A DNA stretch of 64,000 bases from Candidatus Woesearchaeota archaeon (GCA_964401675.1 CAYNZD010000001.1:12007-76006); one strand, 5' to 3'; numbered from the stretch's first letter, positions 1,729 through 25,505 are shown. Translations and numbers: made by a program. The notes: generated by a model not told the origin, from the letters alone.

Positions 1729-1822
1729 TATATCACCCTATAGTATAATAACGGGAAGAGTTTATAAGAGTTTGTGAAATTAGTTCAATAAGATTTATAA
1801 GTTTGAAATTTTTTTATATTTG

Positions 1823-6943: not shown

Positions 6944-6974
6944 TATTTAAATAATCAAACATATTTATTATTTT

Positions 6975-7244
6975 ATGAATTATACTATTGCCAATTTGGA
7001 AAAAGATTATGAATTAGAACTTGAACAGATTGTTAGCGAAATAAAAAAACAGAAAGCGAAAAAAGTTTTATTACAATTGCCTGATGGATTGAAGCCGTGG
7101 GGATTGGTAATTAGTGATTATTTGGAAGAAAAGGCAAATGCGAAAATTAGCATTTGGCTTGGAAGTTGTTTTGGAGCTTGTGATTTACCAGATACAGATG
7201 CCGATTTAATTATTCAATTTGGACACGCGCCGTGGTTAAAATGA
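6975..7244 (+). CDS. Dph2-like (diphthamide synthesis) N-terminal fragment. 89 codons, truncated relative to ~330-aa homologs.
   Basis: ...KKVLLQLPDGLKPWGLVISDYLEE...IWLGSCFGACDLPDTDADLIIQFGHAP matches the Dph2 N-terminal domain, including the Cys-containing CFGACD motif. The stop TGA at 7242-7244 overlaps the ATG of the next gene (ATGA). Confidence 0.55.
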   Translation: MNYTIANLEKDYELELEQIVSEIKKQKAKKVLLQLPDGLKPWGLVISDYLEEKANAKISIWLGSCFGACDLPDTDADLIIQFGHAPWLK

Positions 7245-8409: not shown

Positions 8410-9906
8410 ATGGAAAAGGGGTTTGATACGGAAAAATATCTTGAGGTTCAATCAAAAGAAATTCTAAATAGGGTTAATAATTTTAAGAAACTTTATCTTG
8501 AATTTGGGGGGAAAATTTGTGATGATTTTCATGCGGCGAGAGTTTTGCCGGGCTATGATGCTAATGCAAAAATTAGAATGTTACAAATGATAAAGAACGA
8601 CTCTGAGATTATATTTTGCATTAGCGCGAAGGACATTGAAAAAAGCAAGATGCAGGGAAATTTTGGTCTGACTTATGAATCTATGGCTTTGAAATCTATA
8701 AATGACTTGAGAGGTTTTGGACTAGACATTTCTGCTATTGTGATAAACAGATTTTCTGGAGAGAAAAAAGCACTGAAGTTCAAAAAATATTTGGAGAATA
8801 TTGGAATCAGAGCTTATTTACAAAAAGAAATTGAAGGATATCCGGCGGATGTTGATAAAATTGTGAGCGATGAAGGGTATGGGCAGAATCCTTATGTGAA
8901 AACCGAGAAATCTATTATTGTGGTTAGTGGAGTAGGACCTGGAAGTGGAAAAATGTCGTTTTGTCTGTCTCAGATATATCATGATAATATTAGAGGGATA
9001 GAATCAGGATTTTCAAAGTTCGAAACATTTCCGGTTTGGGATTTGTCAATAGACCATCCTATCAATATTGCTTATGAAGCGGCTACGGCAGATATAGGCG
9101 ACAAGAATATGATAGATCCGTTTTATTTACAAAAATATAATTCTACCGCTGTGAATTATAATAGAGATATTGAAAATTTTCCAATTTTAAAAAGAATTTT
9201 TAAAAAGATTGGCAAGGATATTTATTCGTCTCCTACGGAGATGGGTGTGAATAAAGTTAGTCAGGGAATAATTGACGACGAGGCAGTGAGAGAGGCACCG
9301 AAGCAAGAGATTATTAGAAGGTATTTTAGACATAAAAAAGAAAATATTCTGGGCATTGTGGATAAAGAAGTTGTGGGAAAAATTGAAAAATTGATGCAAG
9401 AGTTGGAAGTAAATGAGAATTATAGAAAGACTGTAATTCCTGCGAGACGGGCGATGATAGATGCCACGAGACAAGATGATAAAGGCAAGGAGGGATTTTA
9501 TTGCGGTTCTGCTATCCAAATAGGAGATGAGATAATTACTGGAAAAAATTCGGAGTTGCTTCATTCGGAATCTGCATGCATTATAAATGCTTTAAAATAT
9601 ATATCGGGGGTTCCTGATGATATTGACCTTCTCCCAGAATCTTTGATTAATAACATAAAAGAATTAAAGGAAAAAATAGTGAAAAATTCGAAGCCAAGTT
9701 TAGATGTGGGTGAAATATTAATTGCTTTGGCGGTTTCCTCATCTTCAAATCCGACAGTTAAAAAATGTATAGATAATATTTCTCTTTTAAGAAATTGCGA
9801 AATACATACAACCCACTTGCTTTCAAAGGGAGATGAAAGAGGACTTAGAGATTTAGGAATTAATTTAACTACAGACGCAGAATTTAGCTCTAAGATTTAT
9901 TTTTAG
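8410..9906 (+). CDS. conserved hypothetical protein of ~500 aa (possibly DUF1846/UPF0371-like, uncertain)
   Basis: Long clean ORF with coding-like composition. The family assignment is from memory only. Confidence 0.4.
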   Translation: MEKGFDTEKYLEVQSKEILNRVNNFKKLYLEFGGKICDDFHAARVLPGYDANAKIRMLQMIKNDSEIIFCISAKDIEKSKMQGNFGLTYESMALKSINDLRGFGLDISAIVINRFSGEKKALKFKKYLENIGIRAYLQKEIEGYPADVDKIVSDEGYGQNPYVKTEKSIIVVSGVGPGSGKMSFCLSQIYHDNIRGIESGFSKFETFPVWDLSIDHPINIAYEAATADIGDKNMIDPFYLQKYNSTAVNYNRDIENFPILKRIFKKIGKDIYSSPTEMGVNKVSQGIIDDEAVREAPKQEIIRRYFRHKKENILGIVDKEVVGKIEKLMQELEVNENYRKTVIPARRAMIDATRQDDKGKEGFYCGSAIQIGDEIITGKNSELLHSESACIINALKYISGVPDDIDLLPESLINNIKELKEKIVKNSKPSLDVGEILIALAVSSSSNPTVKKCIDNISLLRNCEIHTTHLLSKGDERGLRDLGINLTTDAEFSSKIYF

Positions 9907-11036: not shown

Positions 11037-11780
11037 ATGGGTTTAGTTAATTGGATAAAAAGTTTCGGAGAAAAAGTTTTGTATTATCCTGGATGTTTAA
11101 CAAAGGGAGTTTTGGAAGAGCAATTTGAAAATTATAAAGATATTTTTAATAGAATTGGAATTGATTTTATTTTATTATCAGACAAAGAGGTTTGTTGCGG
11201 TTCGCCAGTTTCGAATGCTGGTTATAAAAAAGATGCACGGAAATTGGCGAAAAAAAATTTTGAGATTTTTAAGAAAAATAATATTACGAAAATTGTGACA
11301 AATTGTCCGGCATGTTATTATATGTTTAATGAAGTTTATCCTTCATTGGTTCGGGAATGGGATATTGAAGTTGAACATGCAACGATTACGATTTTGAATG
11401 CACTGAAGAGGAAAAAAATTAAGTATAAAGGATTAGATGAGGACAGGGAGATTGTTGCTTATCATGATCCTTGTCATCTTGGTAGATATAGTGAAATTTA
11501 TGAAGAGCCTCGCGAGGTGATTAAGTTATTGGGTGGGAAAATTCTTGAAGCGAAGTTTAATCGTGATAATGCTTATTGTTGTGGAGGAGGCGCGGGAGTT
11601 CGTGCTAATTTTCCTGAAGTTGCCAAGGCTGTTGCAAAAAAGAAAGTAAGTTTTGTTCCAAAATCTGCTGGAAAAATTATCTCTCCTTGTGGATTGTGTT
11701 ATTCTAATATTAAATCGGCGACTGATAAAAGTGTTGAATTTTCGAGTTTTGTGCTTGGAAAGTTGAAGGAAATGAAATGA
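11037..11780 (+). CDS. Fe-S CCG-domain protein (GlcF/LutA/HdrB-like subunit)
   Basis: Two CCG-type Cys-rich motifs, EVCCGSP and AYCCGGGAG, plus additional conserved Cys. The gene directly precedes and overlaps the FAD oxidase gene. Confidence 0.65.
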   Translation: MGLVNWIKSFGEKVLYYPGCLTKGVLEEQFENYKDIFNRIGIDFILLSDKEVCCGSPVSNAGYKKDARKLAKKNFEIFKKNNITKIVTNCPACYYMFNEVYPSLVREWDIEVEHATITILNALKRKKIKYKGLDEDREIVAYHDPCHLGRYSEIYEEPREVIKLLGGKILEAKFNRDNAYCCGGGAGVRANFPEVAKAVAKKKVSFVPKSAGKIISPCGLCYSNIKSATDKSVEFSSFVLGKLKEMK

Positions 11781-12895
11781 ATAAAGATATTATGAAAATT
11801 TATGAATGTGATGCTTCTCAATTAAAAGGAAAGGCGTTGGATGTTATTTTTCCTAAAAGTGTTGCAGAAATTAAAGGGATTATTAATAGGACAAATAGGA
11901 TTGTTATTCGGGGGGGCGGAACTGGTTTAGCTGGAGGTTGTGTTCCGCAGAATGGTTTGGATGTTGTTTTAGATATATCGAAAATGGATAAAATTTCTGG
12001 ATTTGATACTGAGCGAAAAACCATTGAAGTCGAAGCAGGAGTTATTCTTAATGAATTACAAGGTTATGTCGCAAAACATAATTTAGAATTTCCAGTAAAG
12101 CCGTCGAGTCATGCAGTTGCCACCATTGGAGGAATGATTGCTACCGATGCTGTTGGAAATCGCGCGATTAAATATGGAAAAACTTCTAATTGGGTAAGGT
12201 GGGTTGAAATTATTGATGATACAGGAAAATTACACAAGAAAGGAGTTACTGAATTAAGTGATTATTCTGGAATGGAAGGAATTACTGGGGTGATTGTTAG
12301 GGCTTGTTTGGAGCTGTCTTCATTAAAAAATAGAACCGCGACATTGGTTAAAATTAATAGTCTCGAAGAGATTGTTTCAATTGTTCGAAATTTAAAAAGG
12401 AATTCAGCGGTTTCAATGATTGAATTTATAGATAAGAAAATAAGTGAAGGATTAGAGTTAGGAGAAGGATACCATTTGATTGTTGAATATGAAAATAATA
12501 GTGGCAAATTGAAAGATAAAGAATATGAAGATTTATTGACTTTGAGGGATAGAGTTTATCCGCTTCTTGCTGGAGAAGGTTACGTTAAAATTGAAGACCC
12601 AAAAATTATGCTTGACAGATTTGTAAAATTGATGAGCTGGCTGGAAGAAAAAAAGATTCCTACTTATGGACATATTGGAGTCGGCATTTTACATCCGTGT
12701 TTTAATTCTGAGCAAGAAAAATATATTCCGGAAATGATGAAATTAGTGAAAAGACTTGGTGGACAAATTTCTGGGGAGCACGGAATTGGAATTTTAAAAA
12801 AAGAATTTGTCGAGATGAATGATAAAAGAATTTTAGTTAATGTAAAAAAGAGAACTGACCCTTTGAATAAATTTAATGTTGGAAAGGTAATATAA
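11777..12895 (+). CDS. FAD-linked oxidase (GlcD / D-lactate dehydrogenase-like)
   Basis: FAD_binding_4 motif RIVIRGGGTGLAGGCVP. Its start overlaps the previous stop by 4 nt. Confidence 0.75.
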   Translation: MNKDIMKIYECDASQLKGKALDVIFPKSVAEIKGIINRTNRIVIRGGGTGLAGGCVPQNGLDVVLDISKMDKISGFDTERKTIEVEAGVILNELQGYVAKHNLEFPVKPSSHAVATIGGMIATDAVGNRAIKYGKTSNWVRWVEIIDDTGKLHKKGVTELSDYSGMEGITGVIVRACLELSSLKNRTATLVKINSLEEIVSIVRNLKRNSAVSMIEFIDKKISEGLELGEGYHLIVEYENNSGKLKDKEYEDLLTLRDRVYPLLAGEGYVKIEDPKIMLDRFVKLMSWLEEKKIPTYGHIGVGILHPCFNSEQEKYIPEMMKLVKRLGGQISGEHGIGILKKEFVEMNDKRILVNVKKRTDPLNKFNVGKVI

Positions 12896-12983
12896 TGGAA
12901 AGATTTAAATATATTGGAGGATTGATATAAACATTACTTCCCCGGTATGACGAAAGGAATGCCGGGAGTCTTTATTTTCTAAA

Positions 12984-13541
12984 ATGGTTAAGAAGAGAGC
13001 TATTATTTTTGTTGATGGTAATAATTGGTATCATGGCGTCAAGCGGCTTGTTGGTAATCCGAAATCTGTTTGTTTCAAAAAAGTTGCTTCAATGATTGCC
13101 GAAAATTTTGATTTGGATATTATTGATATTAGATATTATAATTCTACACCGGATATTGATTTGGGCGAAGATAATTATTATAAGCATATGGTTTTTTTGG
13201 CTGGATTAAAAAAAAGTGGAATAGTTGTGAATACAAATAAATTAAAAAAAATTCGTGTGGACGGGAAAGTGTTGCGAGTTGAAAAAGGCGTTGATGTTAT
13301 GATTACAACAGATATGATGAGAAAAAGCTTGGTTGAAAATATGTGCGATTGCTGTGTTTTAATTTCTGGCGACTCCGATTTTGTTCCTGTTATGAGAGCT
13401 ATCAAAAAAGCAGAAAAGGAAGTTTTGACAGTTTCGGTTTTGAGAGGTTATGCTAGAGAATTATTGCAAGGAGAATTTAGATTTTGGATTTTGAAAAAGG
13501 CTGATCTAATTAAATGTTTTAAGGGGTATAATGGAAAATAA
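12984..13541 (+). CDS. NYN-domain (LabA-like, PIN-like) putative RNase
   Basis: IIFVDGNNWYH ... EKGVDVMITTDM ... VLISGDSDFVP are the NYN/LabA acidic motifs. The gene overlaps the downstream ferredoxin start. Confidence 0.7.
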   Translation: MVKKRAIIFVDGNNWYHGVKRLVGNPKSVCFKKVASMIAENFDLDIIDIRYYNSTPDIDLGEDNYYKHMVFLAGLKKSGIVVNTNKLKKIRVDGKVLRVEKGVDVMITTDMMRKSLVENMCDCCVLISGDSDFVPVMRAIKKAEKEVLTVSVLRGYARELLQGEFRFWILKKADLIKCFKGYNGK

Positions 13542-13938
13542 AAAACCGAGTGAAGCTGATAAAATTGAGTCGGCAAATTTAATGGAAGAAGCCAAAGATA
13601 TTTTTGATTCATGCATTCAGTGTGGAATGTGTAAGGCGATTTGTCCGGTGTTTAAAGTTTTGAAAGAGGAAAGGGTTTCGGCTAGGGGTAAGGGAATTAT
13701 TATTTCTGACAAGGTGATGGATAAAGTTGTTTTTGAGTGTACCTTGTGTGGAGGATGTGAACAAGAATGTCCGTTAAATATAAAAATTTGTGATGCGGTT
13801 AGAAAAGTTCGGGAAGCTATGGTTTTGAGAGGGAAAGGTTTGAAATCAAATGAAGAAATGATTGAAAATATTCGGAAGTATGGAAATCCTTTTGGAAAGG
13901 GGAAAATTTCCGATAAAGATAAATTGTATTGTTGTTGA
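13531..13938 (+). CDS. 4Fe-4S dicluster ferredoxin-domain protein (GlcF N-terminal-like)
   Basis: Two CxxCxxC-type motifs: CIQCGMCKAICP and CTLCGGCEQECP. Confidence 0.75.
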   Translation: MENKKPSEADKIESANLMEEAKDIFDSCIQCGMCKAICPVFKVLKEERVSARGKGIIISDKVMDKVVFECTLCGGCEQECPLNIKICDAVRKVREAMVLRGKGLKSNEEMIENIRKYGNPFGKGKISDKDKLYCC

Positions 13939-15666: not shown

Positions 15667-16059
15667 TTACCAGCCCATCACTCCGACGGATGTATCTGAT
15701 GGCTGGCTAATGTCAAGTTTTTTTTCTAAAAGTTCAATTCTGTTCTCGAGCTTGTATATTTTATTATCAAGATTCGTTATTTTTGTATCAACTTCTCTTT
15801 TGTTGTAACCTTCGGGTTCTATTGAAAATTCTGTTGAAGCGGGAGTGGATGAAGCTGATTCTGCCGAAGAGTCCATAAACCCAAAAAATTCTGTGTTTGA
15901 TGAAGGCTGTGTTTTTTGTTTCGGTTTTCCATTGCTGCCTAATTCTACAAAGCCATCCTGATTTGTCGGAATTACAACATCATTTTTTGGAATTCTCACG
16001 ATTCCTCTTTTCTGAAGCTCCCTCACATCAATCATCCTTTTTTTCTTTTTGAAAAACAT
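15667..16059 (-). CDS. hypothetical protein with a C-terminal coiled coil
   Basis: 130-aa ORF. The likely start is an internal Met (MIDVRELQKRGIVRIPK). It has a Ser/Thr-rich linker and a coiled-coil tail. Confidence 0.35.
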   Translation of the reverse strand: MFFKKKKRMIDVRELQKRGIVRIPKNDVVIPTNQDGFVELGSNGKPKQKTQPSSNTEFFGFMDSSAESASSTPASTEFSIEPEGYNKREVDTKITNLDNKIYKLENRIELLEKKLDISQPSDTSVGVMGW

Positions 16060-16140
16060 ATATAGTTAGAGATATTTGACTATATAAAATTTTGGAAGCG
16101 AAATAGTGAGATTTATATATTCTTTATTCCATGTTAAAAT

Positions 16141-17754
16141 ATGGGTGATGAAAAAGAGGAAGCGAGGAAATATTCTTTTCTTGACGATAATAATAGGGGG
16201 AAAGATATGAATTGGGCTATTGGGGAAGTTTTGACGAAAATATACAAACCCGGGGACCTAGCATCGATAGGAATGTATAATTTTAATAAGAGTAAATTTC
16301 AACCACTTTCGTCATACAAATTAAGTTATGATTCTCAGCAAAATCAGGTAGAGCCATCATACTATTGGCTGTTGGATTGGCTAGGAGAAAGAAACTGGGA
16401 TTTGAGAAAAATAGTCGATAATTTTGTGGCATCTCCCGGCTCAGGACAATTTTCTGAGATGAACATGAAAGCAACAAAAATGCAGGAAGAAGGAATGAAA
16501 ATTCTTGGAGGACTGAACCAAGTTGTTAAATCAGTTCTGAATTTAATTTATGATTTAAAAGAATTTGAATTAAGGCTGGAGCATTATGATGATGTAAATT
16601 CGGAGGACTCAAATAAAAAGAAAGAAGGGATGTTGGCGTTGAAGCAAATTTGGCTAGACAATGTTGATTTGAAACGAGGGCGTGGCTCGATTCACCAGAT
16701 GGCCGCTGAGCTTGGTTTTACAACGGTAAGAGAAGTTTTTATGATGGCGGATTCGCAGAAAGACTTAAAGAAAATGAACAGCGACGAAGAAGGAGGATTG
16801 ATTAATGATCAAGTTTTGAGAATTTTGATTCCAAGGCTGAGCGAATTTTTGAAGTGGACTGATTATTCGGAGAGAGAACTAAGAAAGAGGTTTAGTATTG
16901 AGAAAAATTATCTGAAGTCACAAGTTGAGACGATTAAGTTGTATTCTGCTTGGATGAAACCATATTTAATTGCGGCAGAAAAATTGAGACAAAAGGGTTT
17001 TGATAATCATTCTGCTTTGGTTAATGCGTTTTCTACATCAATGTTTGAGTTGCAGCTATTTGGAAAACAGGAAGTATCCGTCGATGACATTAGGTTTCCT
17101 AATTATAATCCAAAAAGAAAATATTACAAAGTAATGATTATTGCAATTGAATTTCGAGGCCATGTTTCGCAAAGGGTGACACAGAAAGGTGATTATGGAT
17201 TTGGAATGGGAGGTAAGATTAATATAGATTATGATTGCTATGCATTAAACGACGAAGAGTTGGCAACGGCGAAAAAATTAGTTGATGATGCAGATGTTGA
17301 AAAAAGTTTACAATTTTCTGGGGATATTGCTGGAGACGCACTAAAAGAATTGAAAGAAGATTTAGATTATTTTCTAATGAGTAAAGAGGACAAAGAAAAA
17401 GAAGAGGGGGAAATTCCGAAGAAGGAAAAGGCTCAGGATATTAATCCGTTTGCGGCTTTATTTGGATTGGGCAAAAAGAAAAAGAAAAAAACTGGACCTA
17501 AAGATGAAAAAATGATTTTGGAACCTGAAGACATAAAGAAAGATAACTTTGTTGAAAAGACAATGAGAGGCGAAGCAGCGGTAGGAGCTGCAGATTGGTT
17601 ATATTTAGCTTATGATATTTACAAAAAAGCTCATCTTATGGCGTCGCCACCTAGAGAAGGATTTGATAGATTTGGTACTGGCGCTATTGGAGAATTAAAA
17701 GAAGGTGGCAATGTCAAATTTGGTAAGGCATTTAAGAGTAGAGATGCTAATTAG
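16141..17754 (+). CDS. hypothetical protein (537 aa), first gene of an uncharacterised three-gene cluster
   Basis: Long ORF with ATG at 16141. It has a central Lys/Glu-rich low-complexity segment and no recognised domain. Confidence 0.5.
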   Translation: MGDEKEEARKYSFLDDNNRGKDMNWAIGEVLTKIYKPGDLASIGMYNFNKSKFQPLSSYKLSYDSQQNQVEPSYYWLLDWLGERNWDLRKIVDNFVASPGSGQFSEMNMKATKMQEEGMKILGGLNQVVKSVLNLIYDLKEFELRLEHYDDVNSEDSNKKKEGMLALKQIWLDNVDLKRGRGSIHQMAAELGFTTVREVFMMADSQKDLKKMNSDEEGGLINDQVLRILIPRLSEFLKWTDYSERELRKRFSIEKNYLKSQVETIKLYSAWMKPYLIAAEKLRQKGFDNHSALVNAFSTSMFELQLFGKQEVSVDDIRFPNYNPKRKYYKVMIIAIEFRGHVSQRVTQKGDYGFGMGGKINIDYDCYALNDEELATAKKLVDDADVEKSLQFSGDIAGDALKELKEDLDYFLMSKEDKEKEEGEIPKKEKAQDINPFAALFGLGKKKKKKTGPKDEKMILEPEDIKKDNFVEKTMRGEAAVGAADWLYLAYDIYKKAHLMASPPREGFDRFGTGAIGELKEGGNVKFGKAFKSRDAN

Positions 17755-17787
17755 CAAGGTAAATAAAGTTTGTTTCTGTGAAATTAT

Positions 17788-18366
17788 ATGGCAAAAGATG
17801 AAGAAATAATTGAAGAACTTGATGAAAATAGCGATAGCGAAATAGGAGAGGAGAAAATAGAGGAGAGTGGAATTTTTGATGAGGATACTGATGAGTCTGA
17901 GCTGAATTTTGAAGAGGCTGATGAGAGTATTAGCGATTTTTCTATTGGAGATACAATTCTATCTTCAGCTTCGACGATGCAAATAAGACAATCACATAAT
18001 TTAGAAGATCTTGCCGGCAAAGATAAAACAGAGGGTTCTGGATGGGATAGTTCTGGTGAAGTTAATGAGGAAGAAAAAAATGAAAGAGATTTTTATAATA
18101 ATTCAAGTGGGAATCTTTATGAGGGGAGTCAAGGCGAAGGAAATTCATATCAAAATGGAAACGAAAATTTATATTCGGAGAAAAGCGATGGAAAGAATGC
18201 TTATGATTTTGAAAAAGTTAGTATTAAGAGTTATGACCAACTTAAAGATGAACGAAGGGGAAGTAAGTCTATGTTGGAAATTTCCGGATTTGAAGACAAT
18301 GAAAAACAGAAACATAAAGAATTTACTCGTGATTTTGTTGCTTATGATGCAGATAAGGCGGCGTAG
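17788..18366 (+). CDS. highly acidic, low-complexity (probably disordered) protein
   Basis: 192 aa rich in D, E, S, N and G (EELDENSDSEIGEEKIEES...). It sits 33 nt after the upstream gene and 38 nt before the next. Confidence 0.4.
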   Translation: MAKDEEIIEELDENSDSEIGEEKIEESGIFDEDTDESELNFEEADESISDFSIGDTILSSASTMQIRQSHNLEDLAGKDKTEGSGWDSSGEVNEEEKNERDFYNNSSGNLYEGSQGEGNSYQNGNENLYSEKSDGKNAYDFEKVSIKSYDQLKDERRGSKSMLEISGFEDNEKQKHKEFTRDFVAYDADKAA

Positions 18367-18404
18367 TTAATTTTAAATAATAAGATAAGTTTAGTTTCTT
18401 GGTG

Positions 18405-20375
18405 ATGGCGTACAATACGACAAGTTATGAATCTATTTATGAAGGAGGTGCGAGTTCGCTTAGTCCCGATTATGGAAATTTTACTGGTTATCGGATGAGT
18501 GCAGCACAGTTGGGTTTTCCTGGGTCTCCACAAACAGCTAATCAGCTAGGAGAAACAATTAATGCATTGAAACAAGGAGTGAAGGCGTTTGAAGTTACAA
18601 TGCTTACGCCTGATACAGCTGAAACAATTCCGACACAACATTTTAAGGAAATGAGAGCGCTAATGAAGCTCAGTGGAGTTAAGCCTTCGGTGCATGGCCC
18701 AATGATTGACGCGGCTGGTTTTGATGAGAAAGGTAATTGGGGTAATGGATTTGGGAGAGAAGATGCGGAAAGAAGAATGTTTGACACGATAGAGAAAGCT
18801 GCGATATTAGATTCAAAGGGAAATGTTCCCGTTGTTTTTCATTCTTCGGCGGGAGCACCGGGTGCGGAATTTAGACCGGGGAAAAAGGAATGGGGAGAGA
18901 AGGGAGACATTATGCAAAGGGGTGCAATGATTAATAGGGAAACTGGAGCGGCTCAGGGTATTAAAAGAGAATATAAACTTAGACCAGAAGCTCCTGGACT
19001 TTTAGATAAGGGCGGAGAGATTACTGGACGCGACGAGAAGGGAAGGTTGACTTATGAACATATAAAAGACCGTCCTGCGGGAGTTTTGTTTAGTGCAGAA
19101 GGTACTATTAATGCTGCAAATTTGGGTGATTGGGAAGGAAAATTAATGGAAGTTGCTCAGATGAATAAACACGCAGAAGAGATTATGGGATTGGCACATT
19201 TAAAATTAAGGGACTATGGTAATGCTTTTATTGACAAAGACGGAAGAATTGTTGATTTTAAGGAGGGCGAAAAGACGAGGAGAGATTTAAAACCTTTTAA
19301 TGAAGATGCTGAGCAGGTTGATTCTTATAACAAGCTAAAGAGAGCAGATTTGTTTCTTGAAAATGCTGATTTGTCCTTTAAATCGGCTTTTCATCAAGCA
19401 TATAAATATTCAGATAGTAATCAAAAAAAGAAATTAAAGAAATTGTCTGAGAAGTATGCTGACGATATAGATGCTGCCTCAAGAGCCATAAGAATGGGAG
19501 ATAATATTGGAGTAGGCATATGGAATCCCGTCAAAAAGCATGAGGTCCTTACTGAATCTCTTAATAAGCTGAAAGAGCTTACCGACCCTAATTTAGGGGG
19601 AAAGCTTCCAAAAATTTACCAAGAGGCGAATGCTTTTGCGATGGATAAGGCGTCAGAAACTTTTGGGAATTTGGCAATGAAATCTTATAATAAGCTTGGT
19701 GAGAAGAAATCACCTGTTTTAGCTATTGAGCCGTTTCATCCTGGGGCGGGGCTGTCTAGTACTGATGATATGATTAAGCTAGTTAAAGAATCTAGGAAAA
19801 AATTCGCGAAACAATTAGTTGAAGATAAAAATTTCAACGAGGAGAGGGCGAAAAAAATTGCAGAAAGTAAAATTGGTGTGACATGGGATGTTGGCCATAT
19901 TAACATGATTAAAAAATATGGATTTACAGATAAAGATATTGTGGAACAAACTAAGAAAATCGCACCCATGGTTAAACATATCCACCTGACTGATAATTTT
20001 GGTCATGCGGATACACATTTAGCTCCCGGGATGGGGAATGTTCCCATTAAGGATATTTTGGAGGAGTTGGAAAAGACGGGAAGACTTGATGAGATGAGAA
20101 AAATTACAGAGGCAGGGGCATTTGTTCAGCATTTTAAAAAATCGCCGCATCCTTTGACAATGGCTGCATTTGGTTCGCCGATATATGGGATGAAGTCTGC
20201 ACCATATTGGAACCAGGTGATGGATATTCAGGGCTCATACTTCGGTGGATATGGAACCGTTAATCCTTCTCAGCATCATTCAATATATGGATCGGGATTT
20301 ACTACAATGCCAGTTGAACTAGGTGGACAAATGCCTGGTGGACAATCTAGACTCAGTGGAACTCCGATGGCTTAG
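18405..20375 (+). CDS. endonuclease IV / xylose-isomerase-like TIM-barrel protein with a ~270-aa insertion and Gly/Tyr/Ser-rich termini
   Basis: Segments align to Nfo/AP_endonuc_2 motifs. SVHGPMIDAAG matches AHVSAAGG, VVFHSSAGAPG matches NFHPGSH, LAIEPFHPGAG matches VIENTAGQG, IGVTWDVGHINM matches VCIDTCHAFAAG, and HIHLTDNFGHADTHLAPGMGNVP matches MHLNDAKS..DRHHSLGEGNIG. The first and second halves of the barrel are about 270 aa apart. The track start is TTG 18399, with an ATG at 18405. Confidence 0.5.
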   Translation: MAYNTTSYESIYEGGASSLSPDYGNFTGYRMSAAQLGFPGSPQTANQLGETINALKQGVKAFEVTMLTPDTAETIPTQHFKEMRALMKLSGVKPSVHGPMIDAAGFDEKGNWGNGFGREDAERRMFDTIEKAAILDSKGNVPVVFHSSAGAPGAEFRPGKKEWGEKGDIMQRGAMINRETGAAQGIKREYKLRPEAPGLLDKGGEITGRDEKGRLTYEHIKDRPAGVLFSAEGTINAANLGDWEGKLMEVAQMNKHAEEIMGLAHLKLRDYGNAFIDKDGRIVDFKEGEKTRRDLKPFNEDAEQVDSYNKLKRADLFLENADLSFKSAFHQAYKYSDSNQKKKLKKLSEKYADDIDAASRAIRMGDNIGVGIWNPVKKHEVLTESLNKLKELTDPNLGGKLPKIYQEANAFAMDKASETFGNLAMKSYNKLGEKKSPVLAIEPFHPGAGLSSTDDMIKLVKESRKKFAKQLVEDKNFNEERAKKIAESKIGVTWDVGHINMIKKYGFTDKDIVEQTKKIAPMVKHIHLTDNFGHADTHLAPGMGNVPIKDILEELEKTGRLDEMRKITEAGAFVQHFKKSPHPLTMAAFGSPIYGMKSAPYWNQVMDIQGSYFGGYGTVNPSQHHSIYGSGFTTMPVELGGQMPGGQSRLSGTPMA

Positions 20376-20454
20376 GAAATTTTTTATTTTCAATTAACTT
20401 TAAAAGTTATTAATTTTTTAGATGATAAGGTGACAATTTTTATTGTTGAATATT

Positions 20455-22236
20455 AAAATGGAAAATAAAAAAATAGGAAATCCAATATGGAATGTTATTA
20501 AAACAGAATGGAAATACTTGGGAGATCGGAAAAAGATTTTTGTTTTGTATATGTCTCTATTTGTTATAGCAGGAATAATAAATTTACTTAATCCGTTGGT
20601 AATTGGACTTATTTTTAATTCAATTCAGCAAACTATTGGTTCTGACGCAGAATTGAAAAAATTGATTTCTATGATTTTTTTACTTTTAGCACTTACAATT
20701 GGATTTTGGATTTTTCATGGAGCAGGAAGGATTCTCGAGGAGTTGACAGGTTTTCAGGTTCAAAGAAATTATACTAATTCGAAAATTAAAAGGATTTTAG
20801 AATTGCCGGTGAGATGGCATAAAGACCATCATTCAGGAGACACAATCGACAAAGTTAATAGAGGGAGAAATGCTATTGGTTCTTTTTCAGAGTCTGCTAC
20901 TTTCTCAATAGTTTATGCAATTCTGAATATTTTTGGAGCTTTAATAATTTTGTTTTTTATAGATAAAAAAATAGCTATTTTTGCCATGGTATTTTCTTTT
21001 TCAGTTTTGTTTGCAATAATGAAAATTGATAAAAGATTATCTAGATATTATCAAAAATTGAATAAATACAGCAATAAGCTTTCTTCTGCAATTTTTGATT
21101 ATTTAAGCAATATTATGACGGTTATTACTTTACGTTTGAAAAAAACGGTATCGCAAGAAATCGATGATAAATTTATGGCAGCATATAAAATTAATAAAAA
21201 GAGTTTATTTTTGAATGAATTTAAATGGGGGTTCGCAAGTATCTCTATCTCTCTCATGACCGTGTTGGCTTTAAGCTATAGGGCATATTCTGATTATTAT
21301 AGTGGTGGAATAATTTTAATTGGAACTCTTTATATGTTATATGGCTATCTGAAAACAGTCGGAAATACTTTTTATGAATTTGCTCATTTGTATGGAACTA
21401 TTATAAAATATGATGCAAGAATTCGGGGCGCATATCCAATTGACGAGGCGTTTGAAAAAATTGGAGAGGAATCCAATGGAAGATTGCCTTATGGGTGGAA
21501 AGAAATTGAATTGAAAAATTTAAATTTCAAATACGATCATTCTATTGAAAAGAGCAACCTTAAGGATGTTAACGTTAAATTTAAAAATGGGCAAAAGATT
21601 GCTTTAGTCGGCGAAAGTGGTTCGGGTAAAAGTACAATTTTGTCTATTATTAGGGGACTTTATCCCACTGACAAGGGAAGTGTTTATTTTGATGGCATGA
21701 AATTGAAGAAAGGTATCAATGAGCTTAAGCAAAGCGTTAGCTTGATTCCACAGGACCCTGAAATTTTTAATAATACAATTAAATATAATATGACAATGGA
21801 TTTGAAAACCAGCAAGGAAGATTTGATGAAAGCTGTTAAAATGGCGAGATTTGGCGACGTGGTTAAGAGATTGGAAAATGGATTAGATACTAACGTTTTA
21901 GAAAAAGGAGTTTCGTTGAGTGGCGGAGAAAAGCAAAGACTTGCATTAGTTCGAGGATTACTTGCTGCAAGAAAAAGTGATATTGTTTTATTGGACGAGC
22001 CAACGAGCAGTGTAGATAGCTTGAATGAGATGAAAATTCATGATAACATATTTAAGGAATTTGAAGATAAAACAATTATATCCTCGATACATAGGCTTCA
22101 TCTTCTTGATAAGTTTGATTATATTTATATGTTTGAGCAAGGAAAAATAATAGCAGAAGGAAATTTGGAAGAGATTAAGAAAAATATAAAGTTCATGTAT
22201 ATATGGAGAAAATATGGGGCAGGAAGAAAAAAATAG
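20455..22236 (+). CDS. ABC transporter, fused permease and ATP-binding protein (MsbA-like exporter)
   Basis: N-terminal TM helices are followed by Walker A (GESGSGKST), the ABC signature (LSGGEKQRLALVRGL) and Walker B (IVLLDEPTSSVD). Confidence 0.8.
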   Translation, partial: KMENKKIGNPIWNVIKTEWKYLGDRKKIFVLYMSLFVIAGIINLLNPLVIGLIFNSIQQTIGSDAELKKLISMIFLLLALTIGFWIFHGAGRILEELTGFQVQRNYTNSKIKRILELPVRWHKDHHSGDTIDKVNRGRNAIGSFSESATFSIVYAILNIFGALIILFFIDKKIAIFAMVFSFSVLFAIMKIDKRLSRYYQKLNKYSNKLSSAIFDYLSNIMTVITLRLKKTVSQEIDDKFMAAYKINKKSLFLNEFKWGFASISISLMTVLALSYRAYSDYYSGGIILIGTLYMLYGYLKTVGNTFYEFAHLYGTIIKYDARIRGAYPIDEAFEKIGEESNGRLPYGWKEIELKNLNFKYDHSIEKSNLKDVNVKFKNGQKIALVGESGSGKSTILSIIRGLYPTDKGSVYFDGMKLKKGINELKQSVSLIPQDPEIFNNTIKYNMTMDLKTSKEDLMKAVKMARFGDVVKRLENGLDTNVLEKGVSLSGGEKQRLALVRGLLAARKSDIVLLDEPTSSVDSLNEMKIHDNIFKEFEDKTIISSIHRLHLLDKFDYIYMFEQGKIIAEGNLEEIKKNIKFMYIWRKYGAGRKK

Positions 22237-22293: not shown

Positions 22294-23220
22294 ATGGTGA
22301 AGAAAATAGCTAAGAAAGCAAATAAAAGCGTTGGAAATTTTGCGCATCCTAAATCGAAGAAGCCTAAAGTGAATTCTGGAAAAAAAGTGGAGTCAAAATA
22401 TATAACGAAAACTATGAAAAAAGAAGTGCCGACTTTGGCAATTGCGGGCGAGCGTGAAATTGCTTCGGATTTTGCAATAAAAGTTTATGATAAATTTGAT
22501 CAGATGATTAAATCAATTATTTTGTTTGGGTCTTCGGCAAAGAAAGTTGCGACTGCGGGTTCCGATATTGATATTATTATTATTATTGACGATGTTTCGG
22601 TGAGATGGGATCAAAGTTTAATTGCTTGGTATCGCGAAGAACTTGGGAAAATAGTTAAAGCAAATCCCTATGCTAAAACATTGCATATTAATACAGTTAA
22701 GTTGTCTACGTGGTGGGACGATATGATGAGGGGAGATCCGGTTGTAATTAATATTTTAAGATATGGAGATGCACTAGTTGACATTGGAGGATTTTTTAAT
22801 CCGTTGCGAATTTTATTAAAAGAAGGCAGAATTCGTTCTACCCCTGAATCAATTTATACATTGTTACAGAGAGCGCCAGGACATCTTACTAGAGCAAAGC
22901 AATCAATGCTTGCAGTTGTTGATGGGCTTTATTGGACGATGGTTGATTCGGCACATGCGGCTTTAATTGCTGCAGATGTTATGCCATCTTCTCCCGAGGC
23001 AATTCCAGAAGTTTTAACTGAAAAATTTGTTAAGGAGAAAAAGCTTGATAAGAAATATGTTGATTATTATTCTGAGATTCACATAGTTGCCAAAGAAATT
23101 ATTCACGGCAAAATGACCTCTGTTAAAGGTAGCGATTTAGATAATTGGTTTGAGAAAACGGATGATTTCTTGGGAGAAATGGCAAAATTAGTTGATTCTT
23201 TAATTGATAGCAAGGAATAG
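22294..23220 (+). CDS. Pol-beta-superfamily nucleotidyltransferase with a C-terminal helical domain (KNTase-like architecture)
   Basis: Basic N-terminal tail, followed by the NTase motif ILFGSSAKKVATAGSDIDIIIIID (GS ... DxD). It is a paralog of the 23661 gene across the C-terminal region (SPEAIPEVL is similar to SPEAIDMFM). Confidence 0.65.
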   Translation: MVKKIAKKANKSVGNFAHPKSKKPKVNSGKKVESKYITKTMKKEVPTLAIAGEREIASDFAIKVYDKFDQMIKSIILFGSSAKKVATAGSDIDIIIIIDDVSVRWDQSLIAWYREELGKIVKANPYAKTLHINTVKLSTWWDDMMRGDPVVINILRYGDALVDIGGFFNPLRILLKEGRIRSTPESIYTLLQRAPGHLTRAKQSMLAVVDGLYWTMVDSAHAALIAADVMPSSPEAIPEVLTEKFVKEKKLDKKYVDYYSEIHIVAKEIIHGKMTSVKGSDLDNWFEKTDDFLGEMAKLVDSLIDSKE

Positions 23221-23660: not shown

Positions 23661-25505
23661 ATGACAGAACACAAAAGTAATTCTGAAGAAAAATCGGTAG
23701 AACAAAATTTAGAGAAAGATTATAAATCAAAAACTGAAAGCTTGCCAGTATCAAATCAAATCGATGATGCATTAAAGAAAAAAATGAATATAACGCAAAA
23801 AGATATTGAAAAGTTCAAAACAGAATTTCTGAAAAAATACAAATCGGCCGAAGCTATGGGCATAGTTCCTGCGCAAGCCGCAGAAAAAATAGAAGAAGAA
23901 TATGAAATTTCTGAAGAAGATGCAAAAAGAAAGCTAATACATCTCGTAGTATTTATTCCAGAAAAACAATTCAAAAATATAGCGCAGATTCGATTAGACG
24001 CGATATCAACAGCAAAAAAAATCAACGACAAATTTTGGATACATGTAATGACACCGGTTGACTATTGGAACTTGGGTCTTGATTCAAAATTCGAAGTAAT
24101 GGAAGCAATAGCAATGTCCTATCCAATTATGGATAAGGGCATCTTGAGCCATATACGGGTTGCCCAAATTCACAAATCTCTTGTTTTAAAAAAATTCGAA
24201 AAATATGTAACATCTTATGTAATTGGTGGTTCATTAACGACGGGTACAACAAAAAAAGATTCAGATGTAGACGTTTTCATAGTTATCGACGACACAGACG
24301 TAAAACGAATGCCAAGATTAGAACTTAAAGAAAAACTTCGAGGTATAATTTATTCTTATATTCAAGAAGCAGAAGCAATTGCGGGTGTGAACAAAAACAC
24401 GTTGAATGTTCAGGTTTATTTAATAACAGAATTTTGGGAAGCAGTAAAAGATGCTCATCCCGTAATGTTCACATTTATTCGAGACGGCATCCCATTATAT
24501 GACAGAGGTACGTTTCTTCCATGGAAATCTTTATTACGAATGGGGAAAATCAAACCAAGCCCAGAAGCAATTGATATGTTTATGTCTTCAGGAAATAAAC
24601 TCAAGGAAACAATAGAAAAACGAATCTTTGACGTTGCAACGCTGGATTTATTTTGGGGAATTTCAACACCAACTCAGGGATTATTAATGCTTTACGGACT
24701 CGCTCCACCAAACGTTTACGAAACTGTAAAGCAATTCAGAGAAGTTTTTGTAAAAAAAGAAAAATTAGTTGAACAAAAATATGCAGATATTCTCGAAGAA
24801 ATTGTTATTAAAGTTTGGAAAGCATACGAACATGGAAAAATTAAGCCAGGAGACATAGATGGCAAAAAGCTCGACCAATTATCCAAAGACGCCTTAGATT
24901 ATATTAAAAGATTAAAAGAATTAAGAGAACAAATTGAGAAACGAATTCAGGAAAAATCAATAGAGCAAATTTATAATGATGTTTTTGGAATGTTGGGATC
25001 GTTACTAAAGAAAAAGTCCGAAGTGGAAATATTGAAAAAATTCAACGAAAAACTAATTCAAGAAGGACGTTTTCCTCCAAGATTTTTGGATAATTTAAAA
25101 TTAATTTCTAAAACAAAGAAGAATATTTCAAAAATCAAGAAAGGTATGAAAAAAGATAATCTAACATTAAAACAAAGTCAGGATGTTGATAATGCGAGAA
25201 AACTAGCAATGGAAATTACGACAGCGCTAGTGGAATACAGCCAGCGATGCGAATTGGCAGTATTAAAAAAATCACGATTCTTGATTGAAGGCAAAGATAC
25301 AAGTGCGGAAATTTTCTTTCTTTCAAGCACTTTTATAGTTCAAGGTTCAAAAATTCAAAAAATATTCGGTGAAAAATTGATAAAATCAAATTCAAAAGAA
25401 TTACAAGAACAACTTGAAAAACAAAAAAACAAAAAAACAAAAATTGATTTTGAATCTCTTGAAATTCTCAAAAAAATATTCGGCAAATTTGATTTAGTTT
25501 ATTAA
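23661..25505 (+). CDS. large Pol-beta-superfamily nucleotidyltransferase paralog (614 aa) with N- and C-terminal extensions
   Basis: NTase motif VIGGSLTTGTTKKDSDVDVFIVIDD. The downstream helical region is homologous to the 22294 protein. It has an extra ~180-aa N-terminal region and a ~200-aa Lys-rich C-terminal region. Confidence 0.6.
   Translation: MTEHKSNSEEKSVEQNLEKDYKSKTESLPVSNQIDDALKKKMNITQKDIEKFKTEFLKKYKSAEAMGIVPAQAAEKIEEEYEISEEDAKRKLIHLVVFIPEKQFKNIAQIRLDAISTAKKINDKFWIHVMTPVDYWNLGLDSKFEVMEAIAMSYPIMDKGILSHIRVAQIHKSLVLKKFEKYVTSYVIGGSLTTGTTKKDSDVDVFIVIDDTDVKRMPRLELKEKLRGIIYSYIQEAEAIAGVNKNTLNVQVYLITEFWEAVKDAHPVMFTFIRDGIPLYDRGTFLPWKSLLRMGKIKPSPEAIDMFMSSGNKLKETIEKRIFDVATLDLFWGISTPTQGLLMLYGLAPPNVYETVKQFREVFVKKEKLVEQKYADILEEIVIKVWKAYEHGKIKPGDIDGKKLDQLSKDALDYIKRLKELREQIEKRIQEKSIEQIYNDVFGMLGSLLKKKSEVEILKKFNEKLIQEGRFPPRFLDNLKLISKTKKNISKIKKGMKKDNLTLKQSQDVDNARKLAMEITTALVEYSQRCELAVLKKSRFLIEGKDTSAEIFFLSSTFIVQGSKIQKIFGEKLIKSNSKELQEQLEKQKNKKTKIDFESLEILKKIFGKFDLVY

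What the first reader, a model, noticed from the sequence alone, without database searches (positions are those of the whole stretch)
16141..20375. Uncharacterised three-gene cluster with an endonuclease-IV-like TIM barrel split by a ~270-aa insertion
The cluster has three same-strand genes 33-38 nt apart, so an operon is likely.
- The first gene encodes a 537-aa unknown protein.
- The second encodes a 192-aa extremely acidic low-complexity protein.
- The third encodes a 657-aa protein whose N- and C-terminal thirds match the two halves of an Nfo / AP_endonuc_2 xylose-isomerase-like barrel. The matched motifs are SVHGPMIDAAG, VVFHSSAGAPG, LAIEPFHPGAG, VTWDVGHINM and HIHLTDNFGHADTHLAPGMGNVP. 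The last corresponds to the Nfo metal-binding HLND...DRH..GEG motif.
- The two barrel halves are separated by about 270 aa with no known similarity.
- The termini are Gly/Tyr/Ser-rich (GSYFGGYGTVNPSQHHSIYGSGFTT...GGQMPGGQ), which is odd for an archaeal enzyme.
- None of the three is a standard annotated family. The barrel could be a DNA-repair endonuclease or a sugar isomerase/epimerase relative. The partners suggest a larger assembly.
Basis: partly seen in the sequence, partly recalled or inferred. Interest (0 to 1): 0.7.

Follow-up and report, generated by a model that had tools for sequence, protein, structure and literature searches.

The report
Conserved Nanoarchaeota metallo-enzyme gene neighbourhood
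Three adjacent genes conserved across tiny symbiotic archaea (Nanoarchaeota) encode an unknown helical protein, an acidic disordered protein and an endonuclease-IV-like metal enzyme carrying a large inserted domain; what the enzyme acts on is untested.

Summary
Genes A (16141-17754, 537 aa), B (17788-18366, 192 aa, pI 4.1) and C (18405-20375, 656 aa) exist as described.

All nine positions matching the endonuclease IV metal ligands carry ligand-type residues in 80 orthologues. Seven are invariant. Two switch together from D-x-H to H-x-E.

The Gly/Tyr-rich tails are not junk. The C-terminal tail is as conserved as the barrel.

A belongs to an unnamed family, seen so far only in Nanoarchaeota, with no Pfam, PDB or fold match. 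B is a fast-evolving acidic protein kept by position.

A lies upstream of C in 51 of 65 informative loci. A Pol-beta-type nucleotidyltransferase lies downstream in 52 of 64.

A and C diverge about as slowly as GluRS. C usually has its own TATA box, so a strict operon is not shown.

Best reading: a lineage-specific trinuclear-metal phosphoesterase with accessory proteins, probably acting on nucleic acids. The database label "sugar phosphate isomerase/epimerase" is poorly supported. Function is untested.

The parts
16112..16119 (+). TATA box (TTTATATA) about 25 nt upstream of the ATG of gene A. It lies in an 81-bp divergent promoter region shared with the minus-strand gene 15667-16059, whose own TATA is at 16081-16089.
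   Evidence: Read directly from the sequence. In relatives a TTTAWATA box with at most one mismatch lies upstream of A in 56% of loci, against 5% for in-gene controls.
16141..17754 (+). Gene A: 537-aa soluble protein (pI 6.2) of an unnamed family seen so far only in Nanoarchaeota. It has long helical hairpins and a split five-stranded sheet that resembles a KA1 domain.
17437..17466 (+). Short linear motif DINPFAALFG (A residues 433-442) inside a disordered Lys/Glu-rich linker. Probably a docking motif.
   Evidence: D433, I434, N435, P436, F437, A439, L440, F441 and G442 are invariant or nearly so. The PFxxxxxGF core survives in the diverse alignment. The flanks have pLDDT below 50.
17611..17646 (+). 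Conserved C-terminal helix motif YDIYKKAHLMAS (A residues 491-502; family consensus YDxYKKAHGM).
   Evidence: Conserved in the close set and the diverse set; also seen in the distant homologues P0390 and P0260.
17788..18366 (+). Gene B: 192-aa acidic (pI 4.1) low-complexity protein that evolves fast and is kept by position.
   Evidence: A B-like ORF (median 199 aa; body net charge -0.10 per residue) lies directly upstream of C in 63 of 80 loci. A [PG][FW]E motif occurs in the last 50 aa in 25 of 63, against 5 of 455 control ORFs. B is absent in L015 and L048, where A abuts C.
18371..18379 (+). TATA-like box (TTTTAAATA) about 30 nt upstream of the ATG of gene C. Probable separate promoter for C.
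   Evidence: Sequence. A perfect TTTAWATA box occurs at the same distance in 48% of 77 orthologous loci, against 7% for B and 0% for in-gene controls.
18405..20375 (+). Gene C: 656-aa xylose-isomerase-like TIM barrel of the endonuclease IV / MJ1311 type, with an insert and conserved tails.
18405..18491 (+). N-terminal aromatic/Gly-rich tail of C (residues 1-29).
   Evidence: Conserved: E9, F11, Y12, G14 and G28. Found only in C orthologues. pLDDT below 50.
18492..18866 (+). N-terminal half of the barrel (residues 30-154, strands 1-4). It carries E63, H97 and H146.
18867..19619 (+). Insert between strand 4 and helix 4 (residues 155-405): a variable beta excursion (155-230) followed by a helical bundle (231-405).
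   Evidence: pLDDT mostly above 90. Present in all 79 orthologues at 186-263 aa. Least conserved region of C. No Pfam or PDB relative apart from designed helix bundles.
19620..20129 (+). C-terminal half of the barrel (residues 406-575, strands 5-8). It carries E442, D495, H498, H525, H527, D530, N531, D536, H538 and E569.
   Evidence: All are invariant in 80 sequences except D536/H538. That pair is D-x-H in 59 sequences and H-x-E in 20, with one further variant, E-x-H or D-x-E. The region aligns residue for residue with MJ1311. The HLTDN...D.H...G.GN and ITE motifs align with Nfo H216, D229, H231 and E261, without statistical significance.
20130..20372 (+). C-terminal aromatic/Gly/His-rich tail of C (residues 576-656), conserved to the last residues (...SRFGGTPMA).
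   Evidence: Mean column identity 0.82, against 0.76-0.79 for the barrel in the close set; 0.65 against 0.60-0.65 in the wide set. pLDDT below 50. Found only in C orthologues.
20380..20390 (+). T-run (TTTTTTATTTT) just after the stop codon of C. It resembles an archaeal oligo-T terminator.
   Evidence: Sequence. Inference from the known archaeal terminator signal; not tested.
15667..16059 (-). Divergent neighbour: 130-aa coiled-coil protein with a DivIVA-like motif.
   Evidence: NCBIfam NF045995, 1.3e-7, below the cut-off. Found divergent from A in 22 of 51 loci at phmmer E<=1e-5.
22294..23220 (+). 308-aa Pol-beta-type nucleotidyltransferase. It is the usual downstream neighbour of C in relatives; here an ABC transporter gene (20443-22236) separates them.
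   Evidence: PF01909 and PF18765. Same-strand downstream neighbour of C in 52 of 64 informative loci. Median 60% identity, the highest of the four genes compared.

Best explanation
Gene C encodes a cytoplasmic metal-dependent phosphoesterase. It is a xylose-isomerase-like TIM barrel of the endonuclease IV / MJ1311 branch, and its nine ligand positions should hold a trinuclear Zn/Mn/Fe centre at the C-terminal face of the barrel.

A lineage-specific insert of about 250 aa sits in the loop after strand 4, on the active-site face. It probably acts as a lid, a substrate-binding module or a partner-binding module. Conserved extended N- and C-terminal arms probably pack on a partner, on another subunit or over the active site.

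Protein A is a new helical/KA1-like scaffold with a docking motif and a C-terminal helix. Protein B is an acidic disordered protein with a C-terminal docking motif. Both are lineage-specific accessory proteins encoded beside C.

The most likely substrate class is nucleic acid: incision at abasic sites, or removal of 3'-blocking phosphate groups. That would fit the Pol-beta-type nucleotidyltransferase usually encoded next door.

Shown here:
- the fold;
- ligand conservation and the covarying ligand pair;
- that the insert is always present;
- the conserved gene neighbourhood;
- housekeeping-level conservation.

Inferred, not shown:
- metal content;
- hydrolytic chemistry;
- nucleic-acid substrate;
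- physical association of A, B and C.
For: **Fold**
- PF01261 hit above the gathering score.
- AF2 model with pLDDT above 85 over most of residues 100-500 and above 90 through most of the insert.

**Ligands**
- H97, H146, E442, D495, H498, H527 and E569 are invariant in 80 orthologues down to 34% identity.
- Five of them end model strands.
- The D536-x-H538 pair is replaced together by H-x-E in 20 sequences, which keeps one carboxylate and one imidazole.
- The C-terminal motifs line up with Nfo H216, D229, H231 and E261 and residue for residue with MJ1311.
- From my memory of Uechi et al. 2014 (Acta Cryst F; paper not held): MJ1311 keeps all nine endonuclease IV zinc ligands.

**Core-gene status**
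- At least 512 relatives among species-representative genomes.
- Median identity to the window is 38% for C and 45% for A, against 46% for GluRS in the same loci.

**Neighbourhood**
- A lies upstream in 51 of 65 loci and the nucleotidyltransferase downstream in 52 of 64.
- B is kept by position in 63 of 80 loci.
- A and C occur in one MAG even when they are not adjacent.

**Not mobile or viral**
- No relative in 2.9 million viral contigs.
- No PHROG or PADLOC hit.
Against: - No significant sequence similarity to bona fide endonuclease IV. hmmsearch and hhalign against E. coli Nfo are not significant, and no NCBIfam nfo model is hit.
- The N-terminal half has no PDB sequence match.
- Strands 1-2, the 529-546 loop and everything after residue 568 (including E569) are modelled with low confidence.
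- Where Nfo has H69-D-S-Y72-L73 in a DNA-recognition loop, C has H-G/A-P-x-[ILV]-[DE]. By my memory of Uechi et al., MJ1311 lacks a DNA-binding groove.
- An insert on the catalytic face could block duplex DNA.
- No DNA-repair gene is a conserved neighbour.
- C seems to have its own promoter, and A is not adjacent in about a fifth of genomes. The functional link between A and C is therefore only guilt by association, in a lineage where gene order is generally conserved: GluRS is also syntenic.
Confidence: 0.4

Rival explanations
1. C is a trinuclear-metal phosphoesterase, but its substrate is not nucleic acid. It might be a phospholipid head group or a small phosphoester scavenged from a host. 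A would then be a peripheral membrane-binding scaffold that places the enzyme at the membrane.
Against: No transmembrane or strongly hydrophobic segment in A, B or C; the maximum Kyte-Doolittle score over 19 residues is 1.04. The KA1 resemblance comes from a mediocre model (pLDDT 67) and KA1-like domains also bind RNA. No lipid-metabolism gene is a conserved neighbour.
Confidence: 0.2
2. The three genes are neighbours only because gene order is conserved in these small genomes. C works alone, and A and B have unrelated roles, for example in the cytoskeleton or cell division together with the DivIVA-like neighbour.
For: GluRS and other unrelated genes are syntenic too. C usually has its own consensus TATA box. 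A is not adjacent in 14 of 65 informative loci, and C follows FttA/aCPSF1 in L022, L024 and L026. In one MAG, A and C lie on different contigs. The diverse A alignment keeps mainly aromatic and hydrophobic positions, as expected for a structural protein.
Against: A-B-C stay on the same strand with short gaps across orthologues down to about 35% identity. B stays with C even where A is gone. Both A and B carry conserved short docking-type motifs.
Confidence: 0.2
3. C is what databases call it: a sugar or sugar-phosphate isomerase/epimerase of the D-tagatose 3-epimerase type.
Against: The NCBIfam scores are far below the cut-offs (22.7 against 305 bits; 18.5 against 353) and cover only 50-70 residues. 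By general knowledge, that family uses one metal held by four ligands (Glu, Asp, His, Glu). C additionally keeps five invariant or covarying ligand-type residues at the positions of the two extra endonuclease IV metal sites. Pacearchaeales lack upstream glycolysis (10.64898/2026.05.13.725050), so a near-universal sugar epimerase is hard to rationalise.
Confidence: 0.1
4. C is an oxidative multinuclear iron enzyme like MbnB or TglH (DUF692). It would modify a peptide or protein substrate, either B or its own conserved tail, with A as the substrate-binding partner in the manner of MbnC or TglI.
Confidence: 0.05

Closest known systems
MJ1311 of Methanocaldococcus jannaschii (PDB 3WQO, 'D-tagatose 3-epimerase-like protein', function unknown)
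   Different: MJ1311 is a single 293-aa domain. C has a 251-aa insert after strand 4, a 29-aa N-terminal tail and an 81-aa C-terminal tail, and only about 77 residues are detectably similar in sequence. MJ1311's activity is unknown, so the match does not give a function.
Endonuclease IV (E. coli Nfo, PDB 1QTW; AP endonuclease with a trinuclear zinc centre)
   Different: No significant sequence similarity and no nfo model hit. The Tyr72/Leu73-type DNA-recognition loop differs. C has a large insert on the catalytic face and conserved tails, and its neighbours are lineage-specific.
D-tagatose / D-allulose 3-epimerase family (source of the database label 'sugar phosphate isomerase/epimerase')
   Different: C adds five conserved ligand-type residues for two further metal sites. 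Scores against the curated epimerase/isomerase models are 10-20 times below the cut-offs.
Two-component barrel enzymes with a partner subunit (MbnB-MbnC, TglH-TglI, C-glycoside deglycosidases DgpB/C)
   Different: A shows no similarity to any of those partners. The metal-ligand pattern and the top fold matches point to the endonuclease IV type instead.
KA1 (kinase-associated 1) domain, for protein A only
   Different: In A the domain is interrupted by about 200 aa of long helices. The model is of medium quality (pLDDT 67) and there is no sequence similarity. This is a lead, not a family assignment.

Membership tests
Xylose isomerase-like TIM barrel superfamily (Pfam PF01261 AP_endonuc_2) | Pfam model hit above the gathering score | tested here: met
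   50.5 bits against a cut-off of 31.1, E 3e-13. The hit covers only residues 483-559.
Xylose isomerase-like TIM barrel superfamily (Pfam PF01261 AP_endonuc_2) | (beta/alpha)8 barrel fold | tested here: met
Xylose isomerase-like TIM barrel superfamily (Pfam PF01261 AP_endonuc_2) | Core Glu/Asp/His/Glu metal site at strand ends | tested here: met
   E442, D495, H527 and E569 are invariant in 80 of 80 orthologues. The first three lie at model strand ends.
Endonuclease IV (Nfo) | Nine ligands of the trinuclear metal centre (H69, H109, E145, D179, H182, H216, D229, H231, E261) | tested here: met
   Seven positions are invariant. The D229/H231 equivalents are D-x-H in 59 sequences and H-x-E in 20. 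Assigning H97 and H146 rests on model topology and motifs, not on a significant alignment.
Endonuclease IV (Nfo) | Significant sequence similarity to the nfo family models | tested here: not met
   No nfo NCBIfam hit. The C profile against E. coli Nfo gives hhalign probability about 1% and negative hmmsearch scores. A PDB profile search finds only MJ1311.
Endonuclease IV (Nfo) | Single-domain architecture of about 285 aa with DNA-recognition loops (Arg37, Tyr72/Leu73) | tested here: not met
   C is 656 aa with a 251-aa insert and tails. The loop after H97 reads G/A-P-x-[ILV]-[DE] instead of D-S-Y-L. The loop comparison was made by eye.
Endonuclease IV (Nfo) | AP endonuclease / 3'-diesterase activity on DNA | not testable with these tools
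   Needs biochemistry or complementation of an xth nfo mutant.
MJ1311-like proteins (PDB 3WQO) | Closest sequence and fold relative, sharing the extended H-x-H-x-x-D-N...D-x-H-L motif | tested here: met
MJ1311-like proteins (PDB 3WQO) | Compact single-domain protein of about 290 aa | tested here: not met
   The insert and tails are present in all 79 orthologues.
Sugar(-phosphate) isomerase/epimerase equivalogs (NCBIfam NF007360, TIGR03234, NF041099) | Score above the curated cut-off | tested here: not met
   22.7 against 305 bits, 18.5 against 353 and 14.2 against 300.
DUF692 multinuclear iron enzymes (MbnB, TglH) | DUF692 sequence signature and best fold match | tested here: not met
Single operon A-B-C | Co-transcription from one promoter | tested here: inconclusive
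   The gaps are 33 and 38 nt, and A-B gaps in relatives are 2-40 nt. However, C has its own TATA box in the window and a perfect one in 48% of relatives. No transcript data are available.

The most novel reading that the evidence does not exclude
A, B, C and the neighbouring Pol-beta-type nucleotidyltransferase form a machine seen so far only in Nanoarchaeota. In it, a new-fold scaffold (A) and an acidic disordered adaptor (B) would dock by short motifs onto an endonuclease-IV-derived trinuclear phosphoesterase. The enzyme's inserted lid and conserved arms would create a new substrate channel. The machine would carry out an essential housekeeping step that other archaea perform with different proteins. 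One candidate is healing and re-tailing of RNA or DNA 3' ends. Another is processing of host-derived phosphoesters.
Probability: 0.2. Interest if true: 0.75.

Novelty: new variant of a known kind. Interest (0 to 1): 0.52.

Why it matters
**Why these genes stand out**
- Nanoarchaeota (Woesearchaeales, Pacearchaeales and relatives) have near-minimal genomes. Their conserved core is reported to consist almost wholly of information-processing and cell-machinery genes, plus a few conserved proteins of unknown function (10.64898/2026.05.13.725050).
- A and C diverge about as slowly as a tRNA synthetase.
- C was found in hundreds of species-level genomes, and A in hundreds of protein clusters from this lineage.
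- They are therefore candidates for a core function still missing from the picture of these cells.

**What follows**
- The current annotation of C as a sugar-phosphate isomerase/epimerase probably misleads metabolic reconstructions.
- If C is the AP endonuclease or 3'-end phosphoesterase of these archaea, it would show how an old repair enzyme was rebuilt with a lid domain, extended arms and lineage-specific partners.
- If it acts on something else, it would extend the known chemistry of trinuclear barrel enzymes.
- Protein A is a sizeable family with no recognisable fold relative, which makes it a good target for structural work.

Tried and rejected
- **Direct alignment of C to E. coli Nfo.** hhalign on the full alignment and on an insert-deleted alignment, and hmmsearch --max, were all non-significant. 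Only the H-L-x-D...D-x-H and I-x-E motifs aligned.
- **PDB sequence search with the N-terminal barrel half alone.** No hits.
- **A more diverse A profile (67 sequences, 22-52% identity).** Nothing meaningful against PDB sequences or Pfam.
- **An insert-only profile of C.** Against PDB and Pfam it hit only designed four-helix bundles and scattered chance matches.
- **PHROGs and PADLOC for a phage or defence origin.** Nothing for A, B or C. There are no relatives of C in viral contigs, so I rejected a viral or mobile origin. The GluRS-linked synteny points the same way.
- **MJ1311 family retrieval.** My last homologue search, with the 76-aa MJ1311 fragment, returned only two short fragments and was wasted.
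- **The MJ1311 structure paper.** It is not held, so what I say about it comes from memory.
- **Literature on this family in DPANN archaea.** Nothing specific found.
- **Canonical nfo near C.** None in the window or in the 80 loci. This says nothing about whole genomes.
- **Rfam and tRNA scans.** No RNA gene inside the cluster.
- **PIP-box or HbYX-type C-terminal motifs in C.** Considered by eye and not found.

Full report
**1. What is in the sequence**

- A: 16141-17754, 537 aa.
- B: 17788-18366, 192 aa.
- C: 18405-20375, 656 aa.

The gaps are 33 and 38 nt. Gene callers on public assemblies that carry the identical A protein call the same three products.

None of the three has a transmembrane-like segment. 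Their pI values are 6.2, 4.1 and 8.2.

An 81-bp divergent promoter region lies upstream of A. It holds TTTATATA at 16112-16119, about 25 nt before the ATG of A. A second TATA at 16081-16089 serves the minus-strand gene 15667-16059.

A TTTTAAATA box at 18371-18379 lies about 30 nt before the ATG of C. A T-run at 20380-20390 follows the stop codon of C.

The window comes from a low-GC (about 33%) archaeon. It carries an archaeal-type GluRS, aIF5B and ribosomal protein S6e. The nearest relatives of every gene examined are Woesearchaeota, Pacearchaeota or Nanoarchaeota MAGs.

**2. Protein C is a split TIM barrel of the endonuclease IV / MJ1311 type**

Pfam finds only PF01261 (AP_endonuc_2), over residues 483-559. 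The only solved relative by sequence is MJ1311 (3wqo), at E 3.5e-7 for the single sequence and 2.7e-9 for a 43-sequence profile.

The AlphaFold2 model built from that alignment has pLDDT above 85 over most of residues 100-500, and above 90 through most of the insert. Residues 1-76, 529-546 and 568-656 are largely below 50.

The 212-221 aligned residues exceed the 170 residues of the C-terminal half. The N-terminal segment must therefore contribute to the barrel, although it has no sequence match in the PDB.

The model's secondary structure places strands 3 and 4 at residues 95-97 and 143-146. Strand 5 is at 439-442, after helix 408-431. So residues 155-405 are an insert in the loop after strand 4, on the catalytic face. 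The insert has a variable beta-rich part (155-230) and a helical bundle (231-405).

The insert is present in all 79 orthologues examined, at 186-263 aa. It is the least conserved part of the protein. It has no relative in Pfam or the PDB.

**3. Metal ligands**

In 80 orthologues, down to 34% identity, these residues never vary: E63, H97, H146, E442, D495, H498, H525, H527, D530, N531 and E569.

H97, H146, E442, D495 and H527 sit at the C-terminal ends of model strands. That is where endonuclease IV carries H69, H109, E145, D179 and H216.

The loop motif H527-L-T-D-N-F-G-x-x-D536-x-H538-L-x-x-G-x-G-N matches MJ1311 position by position. It also aligns, without statistical significance, with Nfo H216...D229-R-H231...G-E-G-N, and I-T-E569 aligns with I-L-E261. 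I verified the Nfo sequence I used as identical to 1qtw_A.

In 20 of the 80 sequences, D-x-H becomes H-x-E (FGFEHTEL). This keeps one carboxylate and one imidazole. A coupled change of that kind is what a shared metal site would produce.

All nine endonuclease IV ligand positions are therefore occupied by ligand-type residues throughout the family. By general knowledge, the sugar epimerases of this fold need only the Glu/Asp/His/Glu subset.

The curated epimerase/isomerase models score 10-20 times below their cut-offs. The database label 'sugar phosphate isomerase/epimerase' is thus weakly founded.

C is also not a regular endonuclease IV:
- It has no significant similarity to Nfo.
- It hits no nfo model.
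- The loop after H97 differs from the Nfo DNA-recognition loop.
- Its architecture is much larger.

**4. The tails**

The consensus of the C-terminal 81 residues runs ...YFGGYGTxNPxxHHSxFGxGFTTMPVELGGQMPGGQSRFGGTPMA, right to the last residues.

Mean column identity for this tail is 0.82, against 0.76-0.79 for the barrel in the close set. In the wide set it is 0.65 against 0.60-0.65.

The tails occur only in C orthologues and are modelled with low confidence. That pattern suits extended arms that become ordered on a partner, on another subunit or over the active site. This is inference.

**5. Protein A**

A has no Pfam, NCBIfam, PHROG, PADLOC or PDB-sequence match. An exhaustive profile search of 1.84 billion representatives finds 669 clusters at E<=1e-3 and 222 at E<=1e-30. 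Ten distant members that I looked up are all 'hypothetical protein' from Woesearchaeota or Nanoarchaeota.

A diverse alignment (22-52% identity) keeps mainly aromatic and hydrophobic positions: Y74, W239, P274, W171, W271 and Y275. It also keeps a PFxxxxxGF motif (DINPFAALFG here) inside a disordered Lys/Glu-rich linker, and a C-terminal YDxYKKAHGM helix. That pattern fits a scaffold rather than an enzyme.

**6. Protein B**

A B-like ORF lies directly upstream of C in 63 of 80 loci. Its median length is 199 aa. The body is acidic and the last 40 residues are neutral to basic.

Sequence similarity fades quickly. A [PG][FW]E motif followed by Lys/Arg/Tyr recurs near the C-terminus in 25 of 63, against 5 of 455 control ORFs.

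B stays with C in several loci that lack A. It is missing in L015 and L048, where A abuts C.

**7. Neighbourhood**

Among 80 loci from species-representative genomes:
- A lies upstream of C on the same strand in 51 of 65 informative cases.
- A 308-aa Pol-beta-type nucleotidyltransferase (window 22294-23220) lies downstream in 52 of 64. In the window an ABC transporter gene sits between it and C.
- GluRS and the small DivIVA-motif gene lie on the other side of A in many loci.

In L022, L024 and L026, C instead follows the termination factor FttA/aCPSF1.

In MAG GCA_018901375.1, A and C are on different contigs. There C is preceded by an AAA_14/DUF4143 ATPase and followed by small genes that look like toxin-antitoxin genes. 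So co-occurrence survives loss of adjacency.

In 31 loci that carry all four genes, median identity to the window is 46% for GluRS, 45% for A, 38% for C and 60% for the nucleotidyltransferase. A and C therefore evolve at housekeeping rates. This is in line with the 47% median reported for phylum-wide marker proteins (10.64898/2026.05.13.725050).

A perfect TTTAWATA box 24-46 nt upstream of the start is found as follows:

| Position | Loci with a perfect box |
|---|---|
| Upstream of C | 48% |
| Upstream of A | 22% |
| Upstream of B | 7% |
| Upstream of the nucleotidyltransferase | 4% |
| Inside genes (control) | 0% |

C probably has its own strong promoter, and B may ride on A's transcript. 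A single A-B-C operon is not established.

**8. Interpretation**

The best-supported statement is chemical. C has what it needs for a trinuclear metal centre of the endonuclease IV type, and all enzymes known to me with such centres hydrolyse phosphoesters.

Three further ideas are reasonable but unproven:
- The substrate is nucleic acid (an AP site or a blocked 3' end).
- The neighbouring nucleotidyltransferase acts in the same pathway.
- A and B bind C.

From general knowledge, minimal bacterial genomes keep nfo, which makes a universal, highly derived endonuclease IV plausible in minimal archaea.

Against this: C lacks the Nfo DNA-recognition loop residues, the insert sits on the substrate face, no repair gene is a conserved neighbour, and gene order is generally conserved in this lineage.

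The rivals are a non-nucleic-acid phosphoester substrate with A as a membrane scaffold, mere synteny, a sugar epimerase, and a DUF692-like oxidase. They are listed with their evidence in the rival explanations.

**9. Novelty and score**

The barrel belongs to a known superfamily. Its closest relative, MJ1311, is itself of unknown function. Four things appear undescribed:
- the insert;
- the conserved arms;
- the covarying ligand pair;
- the link to an unnamed partner family seen so far only in Nanoarchaeota.

I found no paper on them.

I rate this a new variant of a known kind, with a new protein family (A) attached. Interest is moderate. It is a well-defined conserved unknown in a minimal-genome lineage and a probable mis-annotation. 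No activity or assembly has been shown, and nothing here overturns current understanding.

Noticed in passing
window 22294-23220 (+): A 308-aa Pol-beta-type nucleotidyltransferase with a Lys-rich N-terminal tail is the most conserved of the four genes compared: 53-82% identity, median 60%, above GluRS. It is the usual same-strand downstream neighbour of C (52 of 64 loci). Only the minimal NTase motif is recognised (PF01909; weak MntA hit); its C-terminal 180 aa have no assignment.
   Followed up: partly
window 23661-25505 (+): A second, 614-aa protein with a nucleotidyltransferase domain is also conserved in many relatives. There it often lies on the opposite strand a few kb downstream.
   Followed up: no
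window 15667-16059 (-): A 130-aa protein carries a DivIVA-like motif (EGYNKREVDTKI...; NCBIfam NF045995, 1.3e-7, below the cut-off). It is transcribed divergently from A across an 81-bp region with two TATA boxes. A DivIVA-type motif in an archaeon is unusual.
   Followed up: partly
C residues 535-538 in L044-L079 and others (for example L055, L061, L067): A subgroup of 20-21 orthologues has FG[FM]EHTEL in place of FG[YF]xD[ST]HL. The carboxylate and imidazole swap places.
   Followed up: yes
L022, L024, L026 (about 6020-7910, +): In one clade C lies directly downstream of the transcription termination factor FttA/aCPSF1 (KH plus beta-CASP domains). Neither A nor B is present within 8 kb upstream.
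   Followed up: partly
L085/L086 and L084 (assembly GCA_018901375.1): In this MAG the locus is broken. C is preceded by an AAA_14/DUF4143 ATPase and followed by small genes (PF05635, DUF4258, DUF2283) before the nucleotidyltransferase. A sits on another contig and is followed by a different 242-aa NTP_transf_2 protein.
   Followed up: partly
L038, L065, L078; protein P0089: Contigs carrying this archaeal gene set are labelled 'Patescibacteria group bacterium', 'Bacillota bacterium', 'bacterium' and 'Methanococcoides sp. SA1'. These are probably binning or labelling errors. L065 and L078 show the full A-C-nucleotidyltransferase order.
   Followed up: partly
window 11037-13938 (+): A lactate/glycolate-oxidase-like set is interrupted by a NYN-domain gene (12984-13541). 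The set comprises a CCG-domain protein (11037-11780), a GlcD-like FAD oxidase (11777-12895) and a 4Fe-4S protein (13531-13938). In a strain variant (L082) a PHP-domain gene is truncated at the locus start just upstream of the 4Fe-4S gene, where the NYN gene lies in this window.
   Followed up: no
window 1820-2590 (+), 7232-8287 (+), 8410-9906 (+): Three other genes: a Cas4-like PD-(D/E)XK nuclease, a phospholipase-D-like protein with a TrmB-like N-terminus, and a full-length DUF1846 protein (E 8e-144).
   Followed up: no
C residues 8-16 and 625-632: The N- and C-terminal tails of C share a short similar element (YESIYEGGA and HSIYGSGFT). This might mean both arms bind the same kind of site.
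   Followed up: no
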